DNA from: Ktedonobacterales bacterium
GTDB lineage: Bacteria > Chloroflexota > Ktedonobacteria > Ktedonobacterales > JADMIN01
Assembly (NCBI GenBank): GCA_030167145.1
Contig: CP126532.1
Coordinates: forward strand, 1,560,001-1,592,000
Direction of reading: 5' to 3'
Length of the DNA: 32,000 nt
Shown here: piece by piece, positions 1-21,200 of the stretch
Layout of the letters: each line of letters begins with the position of its first letter
How positions within the stretch are numbered: position 1 is the stretch's first letter
The notes under the pieces: model-generated
What the model was told of the DNA's origin: nothing
The model's database searches: none
The model's input: only the letters and a program-made list of their open reading frames with translations
Translations under genes and position numbers: made by a program

Positions 1-980
1 TCGCTGGCGCTGGCCTCCTCGATGGCCGTGTCCAGATCTGGGATCTGCGCGCCTCACGCCTGCTCACCACCCTCGCCTTTGGCGGCAGCGCCGGGGCAGG
101 CGTTCTGCAAGAGTTGCGCCTCTCACCCCAGGGTAGCTACGCCGCCGCCTGGGGTCTCAGCCTCGGCACACGCATCTGGAACGTCGCCACCGGCGCCCCC
201 ATCTGGACCGCCGCCATCAACTCCCCCCGCGAGATGATGGACATCGCCCTGCTCGACTCCCCGCCCATCGCCCGGCTTGCCCTGCCCGATGCCCCCGTCG
301 CCCTCGCCGAAGACGACCCCTTCCGCTGGGCCTACGAGGGCCGCCACAGCACCAGCCTCTTCACCCGCCCCCTTGTCGGGCCAGCCGGACCCGCCGCCGC
401 CATTCCTTTGCGCTGCCACGAACCCAACGGCAAACCCCTCAGCGACCGCGACGACCGCTGGCGTATCCAGGTGCGCGCCCTCTCCGCTGATGGTCGCGCC
501 CTCTTCACCGGCTCCTCCGCCCGCACCGAAAAGCTTGCCCCGCCCCGTGTGCTCCACACCTGGGATCTCGAACATCGCAACATCTTCGGCGCGCTCCAGC
601 CCCAGCGCACCGCCCGCGTCGCCGCCCCGCTCGACGCCATCCAGTTCCCGCTCACCGTCACCCCCGACCTCGCCTACGTCGCCGCCAGCTTCCAGGGCGC
701 GGAAGCGCGTGTCCACCGTCTCGCCGGTGGCGACCCATTCGTCATTCCCACCGGCCCCATCCCCGAAGATGCCCTCATCGCCCTCTCACCCGACGCCGCC
801 TACCTCGCCCTTGCCCGCGATACCCACCTCGACCTCTGGCATGTCGCCAGCGGCCAGCATCTCCAGCGCTGGCAGTGCCCCGCCGAATGCACCGCGCTCA
901 CCTTCGCCACCGCCGCCGCCACGCCTACCCTCGCCGTCGGCCTTCGCAACGGCCTCATCGAAATCTGGTCCGTCCGCTAA
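1..980 (+). CDS. WD40-like beta-propeller repeat protein, 5' end outside the window (track ORF 114..980 is its tail)
   Basis: Frame 3 is open from base 3 (..DGRVQIWDL..) to TAA at 978-980. Recurrent blade-end motifs: RIWNVATG, LHTWDLEH, LDLWHVASG, GLIEIWSV. High GC3. Confidence 0.65.
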   Translation, partial: AGAGLLDGRVQIWDLRASRLLTTLAFGGSAGAGVLQELRLSPQGSYAAAWGLSLGTRIWNVATGAPIWTAAINSPREMMDIALLDSPPIARLALPDAPVALAEDDPFRWAYEGRHSTSLFTRPLVGPAGPAAAIPLRCHEPNGKPLSDRDDRWRIQVRALSADGRALFTGSSARTEKLAPPRVLHTWDLEHRNIFGALQPQRTARVAAPLDAIQFPLTVTPDLAYVAASFQGAEARVHRLAGGDPFVIPTGPIPEDALIALSPDAAYLALARDTHLDLWHVASGQHLQRWQCPAECTALTFATAAATPTLAVGLRNGLIEIWSVR

Positions 981-990
981 CCCCGCCACG

Positions 991-1079
991 TCTCCCCTCG
1001 CCCCGTGGGAGAAGGGCCGGGGGTGAGGTCTTTCTCTGTCTCCCCTCGCCTTGTAGGAGAGGGGCTGGGGGTGAGGTCC
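991..1079 (+). repeat. Two tandem copies of a ~40-nt hairpin repeat (TCTCCCCTCGCC..GGGGGTGAGGTC)
   Basis: Copy 1 is 991-1030, copy 2 is 1039-1079. CCTCGCC(CC) pairs with (GG)GGTGAGG only if one G-U pair is allowed, i.e. as + strand RNA. It sits directly after the WD40 stop, so it may act as a terminator. Confidence 0.7.
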
Positions 1080-11396: not shown

Positions 11397-11909
11397 ATGC
11401 AGTTTACCGGTACACAACAAATCAACGCGCCCGCGCAAAAGGTCTGGGATTTCATGCTTGATCCCAACATGGTCGCCAGTTGCGCGCCAGGTTTCCAATC
11501 CATGGAAATCCTCGCGCCCGACCACTTCAAGCCCACCGTCGCCGTGGGCGTCGGCGCGGTGAAAGCCAAATTCACGCTCGACGTTCAGCTCGAAGACGTT
11601 CGCCCACCCGACCACGCTGGCGTCCGTGGCCGGGGCAATGCCGTCGGCAGCGCCGTCGAGTTGCACGGCGCGATGGACCTCACCCCCGTCTCCGACACCG
11701 AAACCACCATGAACTGGACCGCCGACGTCATCGTCAACGGCGTCATCGCCAGCGTCGGCGCACGCCTGCTCGAAGGCACCGCCCAAAAGCTGACGGCACG
11801 CTTCTTCGATTGCTTCCGCCAGAAGCTGGAAGCGCCCGAAACCCCCGCCGCATCGGAAGCACCGGCAACACCATCAACACCGGATGCATCCGATACTGGC
11901 AACACCTGA
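11397..11909 (+). CDS. coxG: CoxG / SRPBCC-family CO dehydrogenase accessory protein
   Basis: GGAGG 8 nt upstream of the ATG at 11397. MQFTGTQQINAPAQKVWDFMLDPN is typical of the CoxG SRPBCC fold. Pro/Ala/Ser/Thr-rich tail. Confidence 0.75.
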   Translation: MQFTGTQQINAPAQKVWDFMLDPNMVASCAPGFQSMEILAPDHFKPTVAVGVGAVKAKFTLDVQLEDVRPPDHAGVRGRGNAVGSAVELHGAMDLTPVSDTETTMNWTADVIVNGVIASVGARLLEGTAQKLTARFFDCFRQKLEAPETPAASEAPATPSTPDASDTGNT

Positions 11910-11941
11910 CCCTTGATCCTGATACGGAAGAGGCTGGCACG

Positions 11942-12913
11942 ATGCGCACCGATCTCCTCGCGAATGCTCAGCAATTGCGCTCTGAGCAGCGCAGCTTCGC
12001 CCTGGCGACCGTCGTCGCGGTCCGCCAGCCTACTTCCGCCACCCCCGGCGCTCGTGCCATCATCCTTCCCGATGGCCGCGTCGAAGGCTGGATCGGCGGC
12101 CACTGCGCCCGCCCCTCCGTCATCCGCCAGGGACTCGACGCGCTCGCCACCGGCACACCGCGGCTCGTCGTCATCAGCCCCGATGCGCGCGAGCCGTCCG
12201 ATCTCACCAACGGCATCGTGGAGGTTCCCATGCTCTGTGCTGGCCAGGGCGAGCTACAGGTCTTCGTCGAGCCATTCCTGCCCCGCACCGCCCTCACCAT
12301 CATCGGCGAATCAGCCGTAGCGCGCTCCCTCGCCAAACTCGCCACCCTGCTGGATTTCGAGGTCTGGGCCTGCGACCCTCTCGCCGACATGGACACCTTC
12401 CCCGATGCCGACCGCCTGGTCCCCACCCTCGACGCCCTCACCCCGCAACTCACCGAGCGCCACTACGTCATCATCGCCACCATCGGCGAATACGACGAAG
12501 ACGCCGCGCTGGTCGCCCTGCGCAGTCCCGCCAGCTACGTCGGCCTCGTCGCCAGCAACAAACGCCTCGCCACCGTCTCAGCCTATCTCACCGAACACGG
12601 CGCCTCCGCTGAGCAGGTCGCGCGGCTCAAGCGCCCGAAAGGCCTCCCTGGCTTCGTCATCAAACCCGAAGAGATTGCCTTCAGCATCCTGGCCGAACTC
12701 ATCGAACTGCGCCATCAGCGTATCGGCCTGCTCCCCACCACTCCCTCGCCCGAACGCGCCACCGCCATTGACCCCATCTGCGGCATGACCGTAGACATCG
12801 CCACCGCCCACCACACCTCCACCCGCAACGGCCAAACCTACTACTTCTGCTCCGCTGGCTGCAAAACCACCTTCGAGTCCTCCCCAACCCCCACAGCCTC
12901 CCCGCATTCGTAG
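11942..12913 (+). CDS. XdhC/CoxI-family molybdoenzyme maturation protein fused to a C-terminal YHS (TRASH-class) metal-binding domain
   Basis: N-terminal FALATVVAVRQPTSATPGARAIILPDGRVEGWIGGHC and central Rossmann-like TIIGESAVARSLAKLA are XdhC-like. C-terminal DPICGMTVDIATAHHTSTRNGQTYYFCSAGCKTTFESSP matches the YHS pattern. Confidence 0.8.
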   Translation: MRTDLLANAQQLRSEQRSFALATVVAVRQPTSATPGARAIILPDGRVEGWIGGHCARPSVIRQGLDALATGTPRLVVISPDAREPSDLTNGIVEVPMLCAGQGELQVFVEPFLPRTALTIIGESAVARSLAKLATLLDFEVWACDPLADMDTFPDADRLVPTLDALTPQLTERHYVIIATIGEYDEDAALVALRSPASYVGLVASNKRLATVSAYLTEHGASAEQVARLKRPKGLPGFVIKPEEIAFSILAELIELRHQRIGLLPTTPSPERATAIDPICGMTVDIATAHHTSTRNGQTYYFCSAGCKTTFESSPTPTASPHS

Positions 12914-12932
12914 GGGCGTCCGGCGGACGCCC
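12914..12932 (+). terminator. GC hairpin immediately after the cox operon stop (GGGCGTCC-GGC-GGACGCCC)
   Basis: Perfect 8-bp stem starting one nt after the TAG. No clear U-tract (GTTCTCGC follows), so intrinsic-terminator function is uncertain. Confidence 0.4.
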
Positions 12933-13248
12933 GTTCTCGCACCGCTTCATCCATCTCACAACGCGAAAATGTCACACATGCCCAAATCACCATCATCTGT
13001 GACATCCCAAAATCCCGAAAAAAGCACTTCCCGTCTACCGAGCGATGATACACTGTGACATTGCCGTGCAAGAACCCGCCCTGCGCAAACGCATCCGGCG
13101 CGGCACACTCCTCTCCATCAAGCATGGCAAACGCTTCTACAGCCATCCCCTCCTTGCCCTCTGATATATCCGGGCGTACACAGCGATAATGCCCATTCCG
13201 CTTCCAAAACGCTCATCACGTATCCCCTCCTTGCCTCCCCATTCTCCG

Positions 13249-13262
13249 CATGCTACACTACC
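13249..13262 (+). promoter_or_regulatory. Conserved box CATGCTACACTACC (extended -10-like TGCTACACT); TTGCCT lies 17 nt upstream
   Basis: The same 14-mer occurs at 15089-15102 and 20366-20379. TTGCCT at 13231-13236 is a possible -35. About 180 nt upstream of the TIR-FGS start. Confidence 0.35.
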
Positions 13263-13318
13263 TTCACACCAGGACTGTAGGGGCATCTACCATTCCAGTT
13301 GTGCAGCCATTCGGTAGA

Positions 13319-13404
13319 GCGGACATTCCTGTCTGCCTCTGCTGGTGGGGCGGACATTCCTGTTTGCCTGCTGGCTACTGGCAGGGCGGACATTCCTGTC
13401 TGCC
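13319..13404 (+). repeat. Three spaced copies of a 20-nt hairpin module (G)GCGGACATTCCTGT(C/T)TGCC
   Basis: Copies at 13319-13337, 13349-13368 and 13385-13404. The stem GGCGGACA/TGTCTGCC needs a G-U pair that exists only on the + strand. An inverted relative lies at 25814-25833. Confidence 0.8.
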
Positions 13405-13441
13405 ATCATGTCACGCGCCCATTGTCGGGAGGTTCGCCGCC

Positions 13442-14869
13442 ATGACATCGCCCGCCGCCTCCGACACCCCGCGCATCTTCGTCAGCCACAGCCACGAAGA
13501 CGACGACTTCTGCCGCACCTACGTGACCGAACTGCGGCGACTCCTTAGCTTCCACGACGCCGTCTGGTACGACGAGCACAACATGGGTTCAGGCGAACTC
13601 CTGCGCGAGATCCAGCGCCAACTGCATCAGCGGCCCATCTTCATCGTCATCCTCTCGCCCGCCGCCCTGCACCGCTCGCGCTGGGTTCCCGACGAATGCG
13701 CCTGGGCCTACGACCTCTACCAGCAAGAAACCGGCCGCACCATCCTCCCCGTCACCGGCGCACCCATCACCGCCAAAGACTTCGTACCCGACTGGATCTA
13801 CCTCCGTGGCTTCCGCCGCATCGAAGCCCCCAACCTCCAACCCTACCCCCCGCAAGAAGCCGCCCGCCGCACCGTCGCCGCCCTCCCTTCTACCGTGCAA
13901 GCCACGCCCACCGCGACACTCACTTCCAATTCAACCTTATCCGCACCTGCTCCTGCCTCACCTCCCAAGCGCCCGCGCGCCAGGGAGGGCGGTCAGGGCG
14001 GTCCGATACTGGTGAAGCCTGTGCTCAGCGCGTCTACGCCTACCCCGAAACCGTCCGCGCCCGCGCTCCCACCAGACCAGTTCCCCCCACGCCTCGCCAG
14101 CCTCGGCTTCACTGTGCAGGCAGCGACCGACACTACTGGCAAGCGCATCCCCTACATCCTCCCACCGCTCTGCTCCGTCCCCGCCGGACTCTTCCGCATG
14201 GGCAGCGACCCCCGCCAGGGCCGTGCCATGCCGGACGAGGAACCGCAGCACGACGTCACCTTGCCCTCCTACCAGATCGCGCGCTACCCCATCACCGTCG
14301 CCGAATACGCCTGCTTTGTCCACTCCGGGCACAATGCCCCTACCGATTGGGCCACGCAGCAGGGCAAGCTCGACCACCCCGTCATATGGGTCTCGTGGCA
14401 CGACGCCGTCGCCTACGCCAAGTGGCTTGCCAAGCTCACTGGCCAGCCGTGGCGGCTGCCCACCGAGGCCGAATGGGAGAAAGCCGCCCGCTGGGATCCG
14501 CCGCGCCGCGTCAGCCGTCTCTATCCCTGGGGCGACACGTTTGACAAAGTCAGCGCCAACACGTCCGAAAGCGGCAATCATGGCACGACGCCCGTGGGCA
14601 CGTACCCCCATGGCGCCAGCCCTTGCGGCGCACAGGATATGGTCGGCAACGTCTTGGAGTGGTGTAGCAGCCTCTATAGACCGTACTCGTACAACAGTTC
14701 ACTTGGAAGAGAGGAGATGGACGATTCTACTGACAGGCGTGTGCTACGGGGCGGCTCGTGGTACGCCGGCACCATGGAGGCGCGAGCGGCCTTCCGCGGC
14801 AACCTCTGGCCGGGTGTCACCGACTACTTTATTGGCTTCCGCTTGGCTCTCGCGATCCCCATCTCATAA
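13442..14869 (+). CDS. TIR domain / FGE-sulfatase (SUMF1-like, cysteine-less) domain fusion protein
   Basis: GGGAGG 9 nt upstream of the ATG at 13442. TIR motifs: RIFVSHSHEDDDF, PIFIVILSPAALHRSRWVPDEC. Pro/Ser/Thr-rich linker. FGE-sulfatase motifs: FRMGSD, WVSWHDAVAYAKWL, RLPTEAEWEKAARW, GNVLEWC, LRGGSW, GFRLA. Confidence 0.8.
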   Translation: MTSPAASDTPRIFVSHSHEDDDFCRTYVTELRRLLSFHDAVWYDEHNMGSGELLREIQRQLHQRPIFIVILSPAALHRSRWVPDECAWAYDLYQQETGRTILPVTGAPITAKDFVPDWIYLRGFRRIEAPNLQPYPPQEAARRTVAALPSTVQATPTATLTSNSTLSAPAPASPPKRPRAREGGQGGPILVKPVLSASTPTPKPSAPALPPDQFPPRLASLGFTVQAATDTTGKRIPYILPPLCSVPAGLFRMGSDPRQGRAMPDEEPQHDVTLPSYQIARYPITVAEYACFVHSGHNAPTDWATQQGKLDHPVIWVSWHDAVAYAKWLAKLTGQPWRLPTEAEWEKAARWDPPRRVSRLYPWGDTFDKVSANTSESGNHGTTPVGTYPHGASPCGAQDMVGNVLEWCSSLYRPYSYNSSLGREEMDDSTDRRVLRGGSWYAGTMEARAAFRGNLWPGVTDYFIGFRLALAIPIS

Positions 14870-15083
14870 CCCAATAGCCGTATTCTGTTACTCTAAAAAT
14901 GTATGCGCATCACCAATGTACAACTTTTGTTGCAAGCGCCCGGTAGCAGTCGGTGCTTCTCTCGTGCGCGAGCATCGCGGCCCTTGACCACAGCCTTCCG
15001 ACCCTTCACGCGCGTCCACCTTTGCCCACCTCGTGTCTGCTTCTGCCCGCCTTCGCCCCCACCTGTCCCCCCGTGCCCTCCCT

Positions 15084-15580
<497 letters not shown>

Positions 15581-15612
15581 GCGCCGTGTCCGTCCTTAAT
15601 TGTGCAACTGCA

Positions 15613-17088
15613 TCACCCGCCCGCAGTCACATTCCGCGTCCCCGCAATCACCGCATTGACCGGACCCGACCCCATCACCACCACCACATCACCAGGGCGA
15701 CGCAGCTCGCGCAGCAGCGCGGCGGTTTCATCGTAATTGCCGCCGTAGCGTGCCGCGCCAGGACGGTCCGCAAATGCCAGACGCTGGGCAATCTTCTCAG
15801 AGAGCGCGCTGCCGTGGATCAGCCCGGTATCGGACTCGCGCGAAGGTTGAATCTCGACAATGATCACCTCATCGGCGAGGTCGAAGGCTTCGGAGAACGG
15901 CGTCAGAAAGCGGTGCAGCCGGGTGTAGAGCGTCGGCTGAAAGACCGCGATCACGCGGCGACCAGGGAAGCGCTCGCGGGCGGTTTCCAGGGTCAGCGCC
16001 ACGGCGTGCGGGTGGTGGGCGTAGTCGTCCACGAACGTCACATCGCCATCCTCGACGATCTCAAATCGGCGGCGCAGCCCCGGCCAGTGGGTGAGCGCCG
16101 GTACCAGCACATCGTGCGAGACGCCCAGCGCATCGGCGGCGCAGGCGGCGGCAACCGCGTTGTAGACATTGTGGCGGCCAGGGGTACTCAGCGTAACGCG
16201 GCCCAGATGCTCGCCACACAGGCAGAGGGTGAAACTGGTCTCGCCGCCCACGAACACCTCCTCGCCGCGCGCATCCACATTCGGCGTGTCCAGGCCGAAC
16301 GTGCGCACCACACCGGGCCAATCGCCAAGCAGACGCAGCACGTCCAGGCAGCCGGGGCTATCGGCATTGAGGATCAGCGTCGGCGGGATCGCCCCGTTGT
16401 CGCCATGTTCAGACATATCCATGCCGCGAATGAACGAGACGAAGGCGTCGCGGATGACCTCATACGAGGGATAGAACTCAGGGTGGTCGTACTCCACGGC
16501 GGTCAGCACCACCACGCGCGGATGGTAGTTGAGGAAGTTGTAGTCCCACTCATCCGCCTCGTTGAGGAAATAGGCGCTGTGGCCGTGGCGGCTGTTCGTC
16601 CCCCATTCCAGCGAGATTGCGCCCACCTCCACCGTAGGATCCAGTCCCCCCGCCACGGCGAGGCTGCCAAGCAGCGCGGTAGTCGAGCCTTTGCCGTGAA
16701 CTCCCGCAACCGAGACCCCCATATAGCCGCTCATCAGATAGCCGAGCAACTCCTGCCACTTGCGCGTGGGGATGCCGCGCTCACGCGCGACGACCAGTTC
16801 CGGCAAATCTGGATTGCGATGCGTAATAAACGGCGTGTACACCACCAGATCAGCATCCGCGCTATGCGTCGCATCGTGGCCCAGCGCCATAGCAATACCA
16901 TCGGATTGCAGCGCGCGAAATCCCGCCGAGGCCGAAATGTCGCAGCCAGAGACCAGCGCGCCATGCTGCCGCGCGAGCCAGATCGCCGACGAGATGCCAG
17001 GGCCGCCCGCACCGATGAAATGGATGCGTTTACCGCTCATCCCCGCAGGAAACAACTCCGCCAGCGAAAGGGTCTCTGTTCCGGCCAT
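15613..17088 (-). CDS. murC: UDP-N-acetylmuramate--L-alanine ligase
   Basis: IHFIGAGGPGISS (N-terminal nucleotide fold), VAGVHGKGSTT (P-loop), DDYAHHPHAV..VFQPTLYTR (MurC C-terminal pattern). 491 aa. Confidence 0.8.
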   Translation of the reverse strand: MAGTETLSLAELFPAGMSGKRIHFIGAGGPGISSAIWLARQHGALVSGCDISASAGFRALQSDGIAMALGHDATHSADADLVVYTPFITHRNPDLPELVVARERGIPTRKWQELLGYLMSGYMGVSVAGVHGKGSTTALLGSLAVAGGLDPTVEVGAISLEWGTNSRHGHSAYFLNEADEWDYNFLNYHPRVVVLTAVEYDHPEFYPSYEVIRDAFVSFIRGMDMSEHGDNGAIPPTLILNADSPGCLDVLRLLGDWPGVVRTFGLDTPNVDARGEEVFVGGETSFTLCLCGEHLGRVTLSTPGRHNVYNAVAAACAADALGVSHDVLVPALTHWPGLRRRFEIVEDGDVTFVDDYAHHPHAVALTLETARERFPGRRVIAVFQPTLYTRLHRFLTPFSEAFDLADEVIIVEIQPSRESDTGLIHGSALSEKIAQRLAFADRPGAARYGGNYDETAALLRELRRPGDVVVVMGSGPVNAVIAGTRNVTAGG

Positions 17089-20161: not shown

Positions 20162-20316
20162 GCTCGACCCACTCTCAGCACATCTTCCAAATCATAATCT
20201 CACCAACCAAGCTCCATAATCGGAAACGCCCGCAAGAGTTCAGAGTTCAGGATTCAGCCAAACGCTCTTTACGTAGCATGATACACCACATGTGCGCACC
20301 CGTCCGCACTAGTCCA

Positions 20317-21064
20317 CATCTGACCCCATCTGACCCCATCTGACTACCCGCCACCACCGGCCCCACATGCTACACTACCCCTGCACTGCCCCTGCGCTAC
20401 CATGCGCCTCACCGCGAAGGACACGCAACCGTGAACCACCCGCCATGTCAGCACCTATCTGCCATCCAAAAATCGAAAAAACGGCCACATCGGCCACTCC
20501 ACGCGATCCGTTCACACAGGATTACCCGTGGGCTTCAGGCCGAGAGCTTCCTATACCACCTCCGCTCGCCCTTGATGCAAAAATCGGCAGAATCGGCAAC
20601 TCATATCCGCGGCGAAAAATCAAAAATCGGCCACATCGGCCACTGTCATTCTCGTTCGGCCAGCGCGCAAATCGGCAGAATCGGCAACTGTCACACGTTG
20701 GCAACTCCGGCAACTCCGGCAACTCCGGCAACTGCCAAACATGCCCCATCGGCCATTTCGGCCACTATGTTCCGCCCAGGATTACCCGTGGCATTCATGC
20801 TACGTCCTCGCCCTACCACCCTATTCACCACCCGCTGTTTCCTCCGCACGAGATCACCTGCGGCCTTCAGGCCGGGAGCCTCCTTTACCACCCCGCTCGC
20901 CCTCCCACAAAAATCAAAAAAATCGGCAGAATCGGCAACTGCCTTCCTCATTCGGCAACTGCAAAAATTGGCCACTTCGGCCACTGCGGGCATTTATGCC
21001 ATCTCATCTGTGCTCCGGCCATTCATGGCCGAGGTGGGAACCCCGCCCACCATTCATGGCCGAG
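20317..21064 (+). repeat. Non-coding repeat mosaic C: (CATCTGACCC)x3, 20-mer box, hairpin modules, at least 8 A-tract + 9-nt doublets, (GGCAACTCC)x4
   Basis: 10-mer array at 20317-20346. Box at 20361-20380. Hairpin modules at 20517-20571, 20777-20804, 20850-20906 and 21013-21064. Doublets between 20468 and 20986. 9-mer array at 20700-20735. Confidence 0.85.
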
Positions 21065-21200
21065 AGCACGCCCACGATGTTGCCGAATGGCACAAAAACT
21101 GCGGGCCGAACGCGGACAGAAAGTCGTACATCAGCGTACAAACAGGCACACACATGGGATGCTATGGGTCATTCCCGCACGTGGGAGGAAGGAGCGCGGC

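What the first reader, a model, noticed from the sequence alone, without database searches (positions are those of the whole stretch)
13442..14869. Stand-alone TIR / cysteine-less FGE-sulfatase fusion: candidate single-chain sensor-effector
Seen in the sequence:
- The first ~130 aa read as a TIR fold (PRIFVSHSHEDDDF .. PIFIVILSPAALHRSRWVPDECAWA). The Glu in W-x-x-x-E sits where NADase-type TIR domains carry their catalytic Glu.
- A ~100-aa Pro/Ser/Thr/Ala-rich linker follows.
- The last ~235 aa are an FGE-sulfatase fold. Its final segment (RVLRGGSWYAGTMEARAAFRGNLWPGVTDYFIGFRLA) has no Cys where true formylglycine-generating enzymes carry their catalytic Cys pair.

Established knowledge: bacterial TIR domains are NAD+-consuming effectors in several immune systems, and non-catalytic FGE-sulfatase folds serve as ligand-binding modules.

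Inference: this is a one-protein sensor (FGS) plus effector (TIR). The gene is a singleton wedged between the cox operon and murC, with no co-oriented partner, and is flanked on both sides by repeat-rich non-coding DNA. From memory, FGS domains have been noted as C-terminal sensors in conflict-system proteins of multicellular bacteria. I cannot verify that here, and I do not know whether this exact two-domain protein has been studied.
Basis: partly seen in the sequence, partly recalled or inferred. Interest (0 to 1): 0.72.

Follow-up and report, generated by a model that had tools for sequence, protein, structure and literature searches.

The report
TIR–lectin receptor, paralog of DGR targets
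This gene encodes a cytoplasmic two-domain protein with an NAD-cleaving-type TIR domain joined to a non-enzymatic lectin-like binding domain. It belongs to a large Ktedonobacterales family whose binding pocket is rewritten by a hypermutating retroelement, but this copy looks frozen rather than actively mutated.

Summary
Window 13442-14869 (+) encodes a 475-aa protein with a TIR_2 domain (E 2e-11), a disordered Pro/Ser/Thr/Ala linker of about 57 aa, and an FGE-sulfatase (FGS, C-type-lectin-fold) domain (E 1.7e-55). The TIR keeps the WxxxE glutamate (E85, equivalent to AbTir E208) and four other NADase-critical residues. The FGS domain has no cysteine after residue 408 and misses every enzyme-family cutoff.

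In the same genome, a TIR-TPR-FGS paralog sits directly beside a diversity-generating retroelement (DGR): reverse transcriptase, Avd and template repeat (TR). The hypervariable positions of the family fall on the adenine-containing codons of that TR. Two near-identical alleles of a short TIR-FGS homolog differ by a DGR-type rewrite of this region.

The window copy does not pass the criteria for a current DGR target. It has 10-11 non-adenine mismatches to the TR and a diverged 3' homing tail. No RT or TR lies in the window.

It is a singleton in a non-syntenic context. I read it as a ligand-triggered TIR effector, a frozen member of a known receptor class. The immune role and NADase activity are inferred, not shown.

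The parts
13442..14869 (+). TIR-linker-FGS gene (475 aa plus stop), identical to OJF49_001463
13427..13432 (+). GGGAGG Shine-Dalgarno, 9 nt before the ATG
   Evidence: read directly from the sequence
13472..13885 (+). TIR domain (aa 11-148): five-stranded flavodoxin-like fold, NADase type
   Evidence: Pfam TIR_2; model pLDDT 92; PDB matches SARM1, AbTir, RUN1 and SPARTA
13694..13696 (+). GAA codon of E85, the WxxxE glutamate (W81 at 13682-13684); equivalent to AbTir E208
   Evidence: alignment; PMC11374754; E in 86 of 88 homologs
13886..14056 (+). Disordered P/S/T/A-rich linker (aa 149-205)
   Evidence: pLDDT 44-51; 61% P/S/T/A
14057..14851 (+). FGS / C-type-lectin-fold domain with an N-terminal beta extension (aa 206-470), non-catalytic
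   Evidence: Pfam FGE-sulfatase E 1.7e-55; fold matches including TvpA; all NCBIfam enzyme equivalogs far below cutoff; no Cys after residue 408
14741..14848 (+). VR-like segment (aa 434-469): constant scaffold (RGGSW..R.A.R....P.......GFRLA) interleaved with family-hypervariable positions. Homologous to the genome's DGR template repeat (L001 14181-14288).
   Evidence: Best PDB sequence hit of the last 80 aa is the DGR variable protein TvpA.
14849..14869 (+). 3' tail where a DGR target would carry its IMH. Here it is diverged (LAIPIS* against the paralog's LLAAAGS*).
13249..13262 (+). CATGCTACACTACC, a promoter-like 14-mer (extended -10-like TGcTACACT), 193 nt upstream of the ATG. The same 14-mer precedes the DGR-adjacent paralog.
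13318..13404 (+). Three copies of the hairpin repeat GGCGGACATTCCTGTCTGCC in the 5' leader. It is a dispersed genome repeat.
14870..15612 (.). Non-coding spacer to the convergent murC. It holds a second copy of the 14-mer (15089), dispersed repeats (15231, 15416 and others) and (CCGCTCT)x4.9 at 15547-15580.

Best explanation
**What is shown**
- The gene encodes a cytoplasmic protein with no signal peptide or transmembrane segment: TIR, flexible linker, FGS domain.
- The TIR carries the full residue set that AbTir needs for NAD+ cleavage.
- The FGS domain is the non-enzymatic lectin-fold type used as the variable ligand-binding module of DGR target proteins.
- It is one of three TIR-FGS paralogs found in this genome. 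One of them, TIR-TPR-FGS, is the cognate target of a chromosomal DGR (RT with IGNQTSQ/YVDD motifs, Avd, TR).
- Across the family, the hypervariable positions are exactly those encoded by adenine-containing TR codons.
- DGR-type rewriting of this region is visible between two alleles of a short TIR-FGS homolog.
- The window copy does not match its genome's TR at non-adenine positions any better than foreign homologs do, and it has lost the 3' homing tail.

**What is inferred**
- The window copy is a frozen receptor, a former DGR target or a duplicate of one. Its pocket specificity is now fixed.
- Binding of a cognate, probably multivalent, invader-derived or danger ligand by the FGS pocket brings TIR domains together.
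- TIR-TIR assembly forms the composite active site, and NAD+ is cleaved. This depletes NAD+ or produces an ADPR-derived signal.
- The outcome is growth arrest or death of the infected cell in a filamentous, multicellular host.
For: **Domains and residues:**

**FGS is not an enzyme.** EgtB scores 119.7 bits against a cutoff of 360, SenA 96.6 against 420, PvdO 87.2 against 500, and GldK 72.2 against 350. There is no Cys pair.

**DGR in the same genome.** P0014 (L001 10001-12475) is followed by RVT_1 (12483-13766), bAvd (13732-14130) and the TR (about 14181-14310). The TR differs from the adjacent VR at 15 of 23 A positions and 2 of 89 non-A positions, and about 45 nt of the 3' end are identical.

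**Family link.**
- The window FGS domain is 78% identical to P0014 and 74% to P0039 in amino acids.
- Entropy exceeds 3 bits at aa 441-443, 445-446, 453-456 and 458-464. R448, A450, R452, P457, G465, F466 and R467 are fixed.

**Allele pair L086 versus L087.** There are 22 nt differences in the VR, all at codon positions 1 and 2 (10, 12, 0). The rest of the gene shows 6, 8, 28. Of the 22 sites, 21 are TR-adenine positions.

**Frozen status.**
- The window VR has 10-11 non-A mismatches to the TR, the same as VRs from other genomes.
- Codon identity in the scaffold is no higher than in the rest of the domain.
- The 3' tail is diverged.
- 8 of 10 clusters of near-identical homologs have invariant VRs.

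**Context and literature.** The gene is a singleton and not syntenic with its closest homologs. The literature reads FGS domains as invader sensors fused to TIR and other effectors: PMC7159879, PMC8195603, PMC10907252 and PMC7517822.
Against: - There is no functional data for any TIR-FGS protein.
- No defence genes lie in the neighbourhood, which is cox, murC and an AI-2E transporter.
- There is no NTPase or other switch, and no recognisable oligomerisation element, so the activation step is conjecture.
- Conserved catalytic residues do not prove NADase activity.
- I could not scan the rest of the 5.07-Mb genome. Neither public contig collection returned the window itself, so those scans say nothing here. 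A second TR that matches this VR cannot be excluded.
- The adenine bias of the window-to-TR mismatches is confounded with the binding-site positions. Retention of NNC codons is not significant (9 of 11, p = 0.08, given 57% C at third positions).
Confidence: 0.55

Rival explanations
1. The gene is an active remote DGR target. Its VR is still being rewritten, either by the L001 DGR under relaxed homology requirements or by a second template repeat elsewhere in the genome.
For: - It is 72% identical to the TR over 108 nt at the very 3' end of the gene. That passes the lenient threshold of more than 50% TR identity used for cyanobacterial remote targets (PMC7517822).
- 20 of 29 A positions are mismatched against 10 of 78 non-A positions.
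- The 5' leader is shared with the DGR-adjacent paralog.
- Short TIR-FGS genes with no RT on the short contigs available (2.7-2.8 kb) do get rewritten.
- Non-canonical, non-A changes are known for some DGRs (PMC5758913).
Against: - It fails the stricter criterion of only A-to-N differences. It has 10-11 non-A mismatches, no fewer than VRs from unrelated genomes.
- The scaffold shows no excess of synonymous identity.
- The IMH-equivalent tail is diverged.
- Only one RT from this contig appears among the best 120 RT homologs, all 58% identical or more.
- There is no second TR within 10 kb of the DGR.
Confidence: 0.17
2. It is a non-immune signalling or developmental receptor. The FGS domain senses an endogenous or environmental ligand, and the TIR acts as a signalling or scaffold domain. 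Possible roles are programmed cell death, differentiation or kin recognition in a filamentous, spore-forming Ktedonobacterium.
For: - Cyanobacterial CLec paralog families fused to kinase, TIR-like, GAF and CHAT domains have been interpreted as regulatory-pathway tuning (PMC7517822).
- The gene sits among housekeeping genes with no defence island.
- VRs are stable within most lineages.
Against: - The NADase-critical residues are retained and nearly invariant across the family. That is typical of effector TIRs, not scaffold TIRs.
- Pocket hypervariability between lineages and the DGR association point to an arms race.
Confidence: 0.18
3. The TIR is a Thoeris-like signal generator of ThsB type. 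Its ADPR-derived product activates a separate effector encoded elsewhere, rather than killing by NAD+ depletion itself.
For: - PADLOC ThsB models hit the TIR weakly (E 1e-5 to 5e-4).
- Pfam ThsB_TIR scores 17.7 bits.
- Several homologs carry a precomputed ThsB_TIR hit.
Against: - ThsB_TIR is below its cutoff (17.7 against 21.2 bits).
- No ThsA-like (SIR2/SLOG or Macro) gene is in the window.
- The best structural matches are self-sufficient NADases.
Confidence: 0.12
4. It is an enzyme, as the database name says (SUMF1/EgtB/PvdO family non-haem iron enzyme, or formylglycine-generating enzyme).
For: Database names. The closest PDB sequences are ToxD, EgtB and CalU17.
Against: - There is no catalytic Cys pair.
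- There is no DinB-like iron-binding domain.
- Every NCBIfam enzyme equivalog is 3- to 6-fold below its cutoff.
- The would-be active-site segment is the most variable part of the family.
Confidence: 0.03

Closest known systems
DGR variable proteins with the FGE-sulfatase / C-type-lectin fold (Treponema denticola TvpA, PDB 2y3c; Bordetella phage Mtd)
   Same: - Same fold: Foldseek E 5e-14 to 2y3c.
- The last 80 aa hit TvpA best among all PDB sequences.
- The VR scaffold is C-terminal, with variable residues at the AAC-type codon positions of a TR.
   Different: - TvpA and Mtd are surface or tail proteins with no effector domain.
- Here the module is cytoplasmic and fused to a TIR.
- This copy lacks a matching TR and IMH.
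DGR-diversified putative antigen sensors of multicellular bacteria (Thiohalocapsa PB-PSB1 targets, such as the DGR 2 target with CHAT + TIR + CLec; PMC10907252), and cyanobacterial CLec paralogs with N-terminal TIR-like domains (PMC7517822)
   Same: - Effector or signalling domain at the N-terminus, CLec/FGS at the C-terminus.
- Paralog families with DGR-internal, remote and non-diversified members.
- The host is multicellular.
   Different: - A different phylum (Chloroflexota, Ktedonobacterales).
- A minimal two-domain architecture.
- The window copy is not adjacent to the DGR and is not TR-matched.
STAND/NACHT NTPase-FGS 'antigen-receptor type' proteins (PMC8195603; bioRxiv 10.1101/2022.07.19.500537; PMC13581612)
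   Same: The FGS domain is the C-terminal sensor, TIR is among the N-terminal effectors, and there is an occasional DGR link.
   Different: There is no NTPase switch between effector and sensor. Pfam finds only TIR_2 and FGE-sulfatase.
NADase TIR effectors (AbTir, SARM1, plant TNL TIRs, SPARTA TIR-APAZ, TIR-SAVED, ThsB)
   Same: The fold and the S/R/D/W/E catalytic constellation.
   Different: The sensor partner is a lectin-fold domain on the same chain. Activation has not been studied.

Membership tests
TIR domain, NADase type | TIR (flavodoxin-like) fold | tested here: met
   Pfam TIR_2 44.9 bits against a cutoff of 28. Model pLDDT 92. Foldseek hits SARM1, AbTir, RUN1 and SPARTA, E 3.5e-5 to 1e-3.
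TIR domain, NADase type | Catalytic glutamate in the alpha-C WxxxE motif, plus other residues required for AbTir NADase activity | tested here: met
   W81/E85 align with AbTir W204/E208. S15, R25 and D44 align with S140, R151 and D167. E85 is present in 86 of 88 homologs.
TIR domain, NADase type | NAD+ cleavage activity that depends on self-association | not testable with these tools
   Needs biochemistry.
Formylglycine-generating enzyme (SUMF1/FGE) | FGE-sulfatase fold | tested here: met
   Pfam E 1.7e-55. Foldseek to FGE structures, E about 1e-17.
Formylglycine-generating enzyme (SUMF1/FGE) | Copper-binding catalytic Cys pair after the RGGS[WFY] motif (human C336/C341, from established knowledge) | tested here: not met
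   There is no Cys after residue 408. The segment reads RGGSWYAGTMEARAAFR.
EgtB / SenA / OvoA / PvdO / GldK equivalogs | Score above the NCBIfam curated cutoff; DinB-like N-terminal domain for EgtB | tested here: not met
   119.7 against 360, 96.6 against 420, 46.4 against 400, 87.2 against 500, and 72.2 against 350 bits. No DinB domain.
DGR target (variable) protein | CLec/FGS fold with a C-terminal VR scaffold | tested here: met
DGR target (variable) protein | A DGR (RT with [ILV]GxxxSQ, Avd, TR) in the same genome | tested here: met
   L001 12483-14310, on the same 5.07-Mb contig. IGNQTSQ and YVDD motifs. Avd by Pfam and NCBIfam, the latter 71.7 bits, just under its cutoff of 80.
DGR target (variable) protein | VR differs from a TR only (or almost only) at TR adenines | tested here: not met
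   10-11 non-A mismatches in about 80 positions against the only TR I could reach, no better than foreign VRs. The rest of the genome could not be scanned.
DGR target (variable) protein | IMH-like constant sequence shared with the TR at the 3' end of the VR | tested here: not met
   Homology ends about 17 nt after the last variable codon. The tail is LAIPIS*, against LLAAAGS* in the cognate target.
DGR target (variable) protein | Observed A-directed variation among alleles | tested here: inconclusive
   Shown for a homolog (L086 versus L087). The window protein's cluster has a single member, so this could not be tested.
Thoeris (ThsA/ThsB) | ThsB-type TIR plus an adjacent ThsA effector | tested here: not met
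   ThsB_TIR scores 17.7 bits, under its cutoff of 21.2. There is no SIR2/SLOG or Macro gene in the window.
STAND / NLR-like receptor | Central NTPase (NACHT / NB-ARC / nSTAND) domain | tested here: not met
   No such Pfam hit. The inter-domain segment is a 57-aa disordered linker.

The most novel reading that the evidence does not exclude
The three TIR-FGS paralogs form a two-tier receptor repertoire. One 'hot' locus is kept next to the DGR and continually rewritten. Successful specificities are duplicated or converted into dispersed copies, such as the window gene, that lose the homing tail and are thereby fixed. That would be a bacterial analogue of turning somatic hypermutation products into germline-encoded receptors, each wired directly to a TIR NADase with no NTPase switch.
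Probability: 0.12. Interest if true: 0.85.

Novelty: new member of a known kind. Interest (0 to 1): 0.45.

Why it matters
FGS domains fused to death effectors have been proposed as bacterial counterparts of hypermutating antigen receptors, but none has been tested.

The Ktedonobacterales TIR-FGS family is the simplest version, one sensor and one effector on one chain. It is abundant: nearly all of the best 120 database hits share the architecture. The data here include a natural allele pair showing DGR-type pocket replacement.

That makes the family a tractable system for two questions. Can lectin-fold binding alone switch on a TIR NADase? How do diversified and fixed receptor copies coexist in one genome?

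For annotation, it shows that the label 'SUMF1/EgtB/PvdO family nonheme iron enzyme' is wrong for these proteins.

Tried and rejected
1. **TR in the window.** I looked for a TR or RT inside the window and found none.
2. **Cognate TR for the window VR.** I ran degenerate-pattern scans of metagenome contigs and genome contigs. Both returned nothing, not even the window itself, although the first pattern matches the window (the second was not checked against it). These collections therefore do not hold this MAG, and the tests say nothing.
3. **GTDB scan.** Only 6 of 80 had an RT within 10 kb. It was of little use for synteny.
4. **Third-position test.** I asked whether third-position C is retained at the AAC codons of the TR. 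It is in 9 of 11, but the gene has 57% C at third positions, so p = 0.08. I rejected this as evidence.
5. **Recent overwriting test.** I compared synonymous codon identity in the VR scaffold (0.47-0.69) with the rest of the FGS domain (0.51-0.72). There is no excess.
6. **A-bias control.** VRs from other genomes (L003, L005) show the same adenine bias against this TR. The bias is therefore a family property and does not prove targeting.
7. **9m0n.** This 824-aa PDB 'tetratricopeptide repeat protein' with a TIR has the same length as P0014, but a PDB search with P0014 does not return it, so the equal length is a coincidence.
8. **Rfam scan of 12800-15700.** The only hit is a sub-threshold CRISPR-DR28 match (33.6 against 35 bits), and there is no array.
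9. **afdb50 fold search.** The library was not available.
10. **Small ORFs in the flanks.** 12841-13146 (-) and 15151-15600 (+) have no family hits.
Full report
**1. What is there**

The open frame covering the finding runs 13250..14869 on the + strand. I take 13442 as the start for three reasons. A GGGAGG lies 9 nt upstream. 88 homologs begin at the equivalent position (consensus MxxxxPRxFVSHSH). The 475-aa product is 100% identical to OJF49_001463 of a Ktedonobacterales MAG with a 5.07-Mb contig.

Pfam gives TIR_2 at aa 12-107 (E 2e-11) and FGE-sulfatase at aa 244-469 (E 1.7e-55). AlphaFold2 with an 88-sequence alignment gives pLDDT 87 overall. It shows a TIR at aa 11-148, a disordered stretch at aa 149-205 (pLDDT 44-51; 61% P/S/T/A), and a beta-rich extension plus FGS fold at aa 206-470.

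**2. The TIR domain**

A separate model of aa 1-150 (pLDDT 92) matches catalytically active TIRs best:
- SARM1.
- Flax L6.
- AbTir bound to the NAD analogue 3AD (7uxu; TM 0.73/0.80; rmsd 3.1 Å).
- RUN1.
- SPARTA TIR-APAZ.

The phmmer alignment to AbTir chain 7uwg_A has a constant numbering offset of 130. It places window F13, S15, H16, R25, D44, W81 and E85 on AbTir F138, S140, H141, R151, D167, W204 and E208. PMC11374754 states that bacterial TIR NADase activity depends on the Glu of the alpha-C WxxxE motif. It also reports that S140A, R151A, D167A, W204A and E208A inhibit AbTir.

Across the 88 homologs, F13 and S15 are invariant. D44 is present in 85 of 88, E85 in 86 of 88, and W81 is W or Y in 85 of 88. 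Activity itself is untested.

**3. The FGS domain is not an enzyme**

- The protein has no Cys after residue 408, so the Cys pair that FGEs carry after RGGS[WFY] is absent.
- There is no DinB-like domain.
- All NCBIfam enzyme or lipoprotein equivalogs score 3- to 6-fold below their cutoffs. These are EgtB, SenA, OvoA, PvdO and GldK.
- The fold search recovers CalU17, ToxD, EgtB, FGE, PvdO and the DGR variable protein TvpA.
- With only the last 80 residues as query, TvpA is the best PDB sequence hit (E 2.7e-6).

**4. The retroelement link**

Two paralogs from the same contig appear among the homologs: P0014 (TIR-TPR-FGS, 824 aa) and P0039 (TIR-x-FGS, 687 aa).

P0014 (L001 10001-12475) is followed at once by three elements:
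- An RVT_1 reverse transcriptase (12483-13766) with the DGR-typical IGNQTSQ and YVDD motifs.
- A bAvd / DivGenRetAVD protein (13732-14130).
- A template repeat at about 14181-14310, which encodes [36 protein letters not shown].

Against its adjacent VR, the TR is mismatched at 15 of 23 adenines but at only 2 of 89 other positions. About 45 nt of 3' sequence are shared. The VR also carries -1 and -17 nt indels. These may be real, since VR indels are documented in PMC5758913, or they may be a MAG assembly artefact.

The neighbours of this DGR are housekeeping genes (F420 biosynthesis, mnmG, MgtE, Nramp). It is therefore chromosomal, not prophage-borne.

**5. Is the window gene a DGR target?**

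Evidence for a link:
- Its FGS domain upstream of the VR is 78% identical in amino acids to P0014 and 74% to P0039. That is closer than to its best full-length homologs, at about 65%.
- Window 14741-14848 aligns without gaps to the TR. 20 of 29 TR adenines are mismatched, against 10 of 78 other positions (Fisher p = 4e-8).

Three controls weaken this as evidence of current targeting:
- VRs of homologs from other metagenomes (L003, L005) show the same bias against this TR: 19 of 29 against 10 of 77, and 19 of 29 against 9 of 78.
- Codon identity at conserved residues is no higher in the VR scaffold than in the rest of the domain.
- C-ending codons at the TR's AAC positions (9 of 11) are not significant, given 57% C at third positions (p = 0.08).

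The 3' constant tail that would serve as the IMH is also diverged. Homology to the TR stops about 17 nt after the last variable codon. By the criterion of Wu et al. (only A-to-N differences), the gene is not a target of this TR. By the lenient threshold used for cyanobacteria (more than 50% TR identity), it would be listed as a remote variable protein.

I could not scan the rest of the genome. Only one RT from this contig appears among the best 120 RT homologs.

**6. The family as a whole is DGR-shaped**

In the 88-sequence alignment, entropy exceeds 3 bits at aa 441-443, 445-446, 453-456 and 458-464. R448, A450, R452, P457, G465, F466 and R467 are fixed. The variable positions are those encoded by adenine-containing TR codons.

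In 8 of 10 clusters of homologs that are at least 90% identical, the VR is invariant even though other columns vary. Rewriting is therefore episodic.

In the P0010 cluster, two alleles from sister samples (L086, L087) are 92% identical in protein. At the DNA level:
- They differ at 22 nt in the VR, all at codon positions 1 and 2 (10, 12, 0).
- The rest of the gene differs mostly at third positions (6, 8, 28).
- 21 of the 22 sites correspond to TR adenines.

This is a direct footprint of mutagenic retrohoming in a short TIR-FGS gene.

At least three further TIR-FGS proteins probably share a contig with an RT homolog. I inferred this from matching contig lengths (4226, 25284 and 6721 nt). It is an inference, not a direct observation.

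**7. Context**

- Upstream, on the same strand, lies the cox cluster: coxM, coxS, coxL, coxG and an XdhC-YHS gene. A 528-nt gap follows it.
- Downstream lies a 743-nt spacer and then the convergent murC.
- Further on is an AI-2E transporter.
- The window holds no RT, TR, NTPase, ThsA or other recognised defence gene.
- The closest homologs sit elsewhere. L003 is next to smpB. L004 and L005 are divergent from a large AAA_11/AAA_12 helicase. L086 is next to a DDE transposase.

The gene is a dispersed, non-syntenic singleton.

**8. The flanking repeats**

The 5' leader holds an exact 14-mer, CATGCTACACTACC, which contains an extended -10-like TGcTACACT. After it come three hairpin repeats, GGCGGACATTCCTGTCTGCC.

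The same 14-mer plus hairpin precedes P0014, and a degenerate version precedes P0039. Both elements also occur at other, unrelated places in the window and in L001. The downstream spacer shares short dispersed repeats with window 20200-21100 and L001 14300-16000.

These are genome-wide REP/MITE-like elements. A regulatory role for the shared leader is possible but untested. The leader's fold z-score is only -1.84.

**9. Mechanism**

Shown: an effector-competent TIR joined by a flexible tether to a lectin-fold pocket of the DGR type.

Inferred: ligand binding by the pocket concentrates or orders the TIRs. These then assemble and cleave NAD+, giving abortive-infection-like arrest.

With no NTPase switch, the simplest trigger is a multivalent or polymeric ligand. 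I put the overall model at about 0.55. The alternatives are:
- Active remote DGR target: 0.17.
- Non-immune signalling receptor: 0.18.
- Thoeris-like signal generator: 0.12.
- Enzyme: 0.03.

These overlap in part, because the first and third are variants of the same receptor model.

**10. Comparison and novelty**

FGS domains as invader sensors, their fusion to TIR and other effectors, and their diversification by DGRs are described in PMC7159879, PMC8195603, PMC10907252, PMC7517822 and the bNACHT preprint. Those descriptions mostly involve a STAND NTPase or a ternary system.

The direct TIR-linker-FGS form, its expansion in Ktedonobacterales, and its presence in other Chloroflexota (L006, L083) add a member to this kind. 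They do not add a new kind. The window copy is the less remarkable, apparently fixed, paralog.

Interest: 0.45.

Noticed in passing
L001 10001-14310 (same genome, about 1.0 Mb into the contig): A complete chromosomal DGR in the order target, RT, Avd, TR. The target is TIR-TPR-FGS. The adjacent VR carries a -1 nt and a -17 nt indel relative to the TR. These shift the frame across the conserved ARAAYR scaffold and then restore it. This is either a real aberrant homing product or an assembly artefact in a polymorphic region.
   Followed up: partly
window 13249, 15089, 20366; L001 9811, 14757; L002 9870: An exact 14-mer, CATGCTACACTACC (extended -10-like), recurs on the + strand upstream of all three TIR-FGS paralogs (degenerate in L002) and at other sites. 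It may be a shared promoter or regulon element.
   Followed up: partly
window 13318-13404 (+), 25814 (-); L001 9881, 14875, 14971, 19052; L002 8594, 9934, 13236: A dispersed 20-nt hairpin repeat, GGCGGACATTCCTGTCTGCC. It forms an 8-bp stem with a G.U pair and a UUCC loop on the + strand RNA. It is mostly intergenic and mostly in one orientation, and is absent from the homolog loci of other genomes.
   Followed up: partly
window 14870-15612 and 20200-21100; L001 14300-16000: Intergenic stretches share short dispersed repeats, for example CCAGGATTACCCGYGGCATTCATGC. The gene calls over them (244 aa in L001; the N-terminus of the 554-aa PRC-barrel ORF at window 20367) have no family hits there and are probably partly spurious.
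   Followed up: partly
window 15491-15514 (-) and 15547-15580: An isolated sub-threshold CRISPR-DR28 match (33.6 against 35 bits) with no array, next to a (CCGCTCT)x4.9 tandem repeat just past the murC stop codon.
   Followed up: no
L004 1-1462 and L005 6295-9513: Two of the closest TIR-FGS homologs are each divergently paired with a large SF1 helicase (AAA_11/AAA_12/MTES_1575). This may be a partner gene in that sub-lineage. It is absent from the window.
   Followed up: no
window 11903-12913: The XdhC/CoxI-type maturation protein at the end of the cox cluster carries a C-terminal YHS (metal-binding) domain.
   Followed up: no
window 1-1000: GC is 71% with a strongly negative GC skew (-0.30). 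The 249-aa ORF at 277-1026 has no Pfam hit.
   Followed up: no
L001 15734-17977: A 747-aa TPR-only protein (MalT-like TPR, TPR_12) lies about 1.4 kb downstream of the DGR template repeat. The DGR target itself contains TPRs.
   Followed up: no
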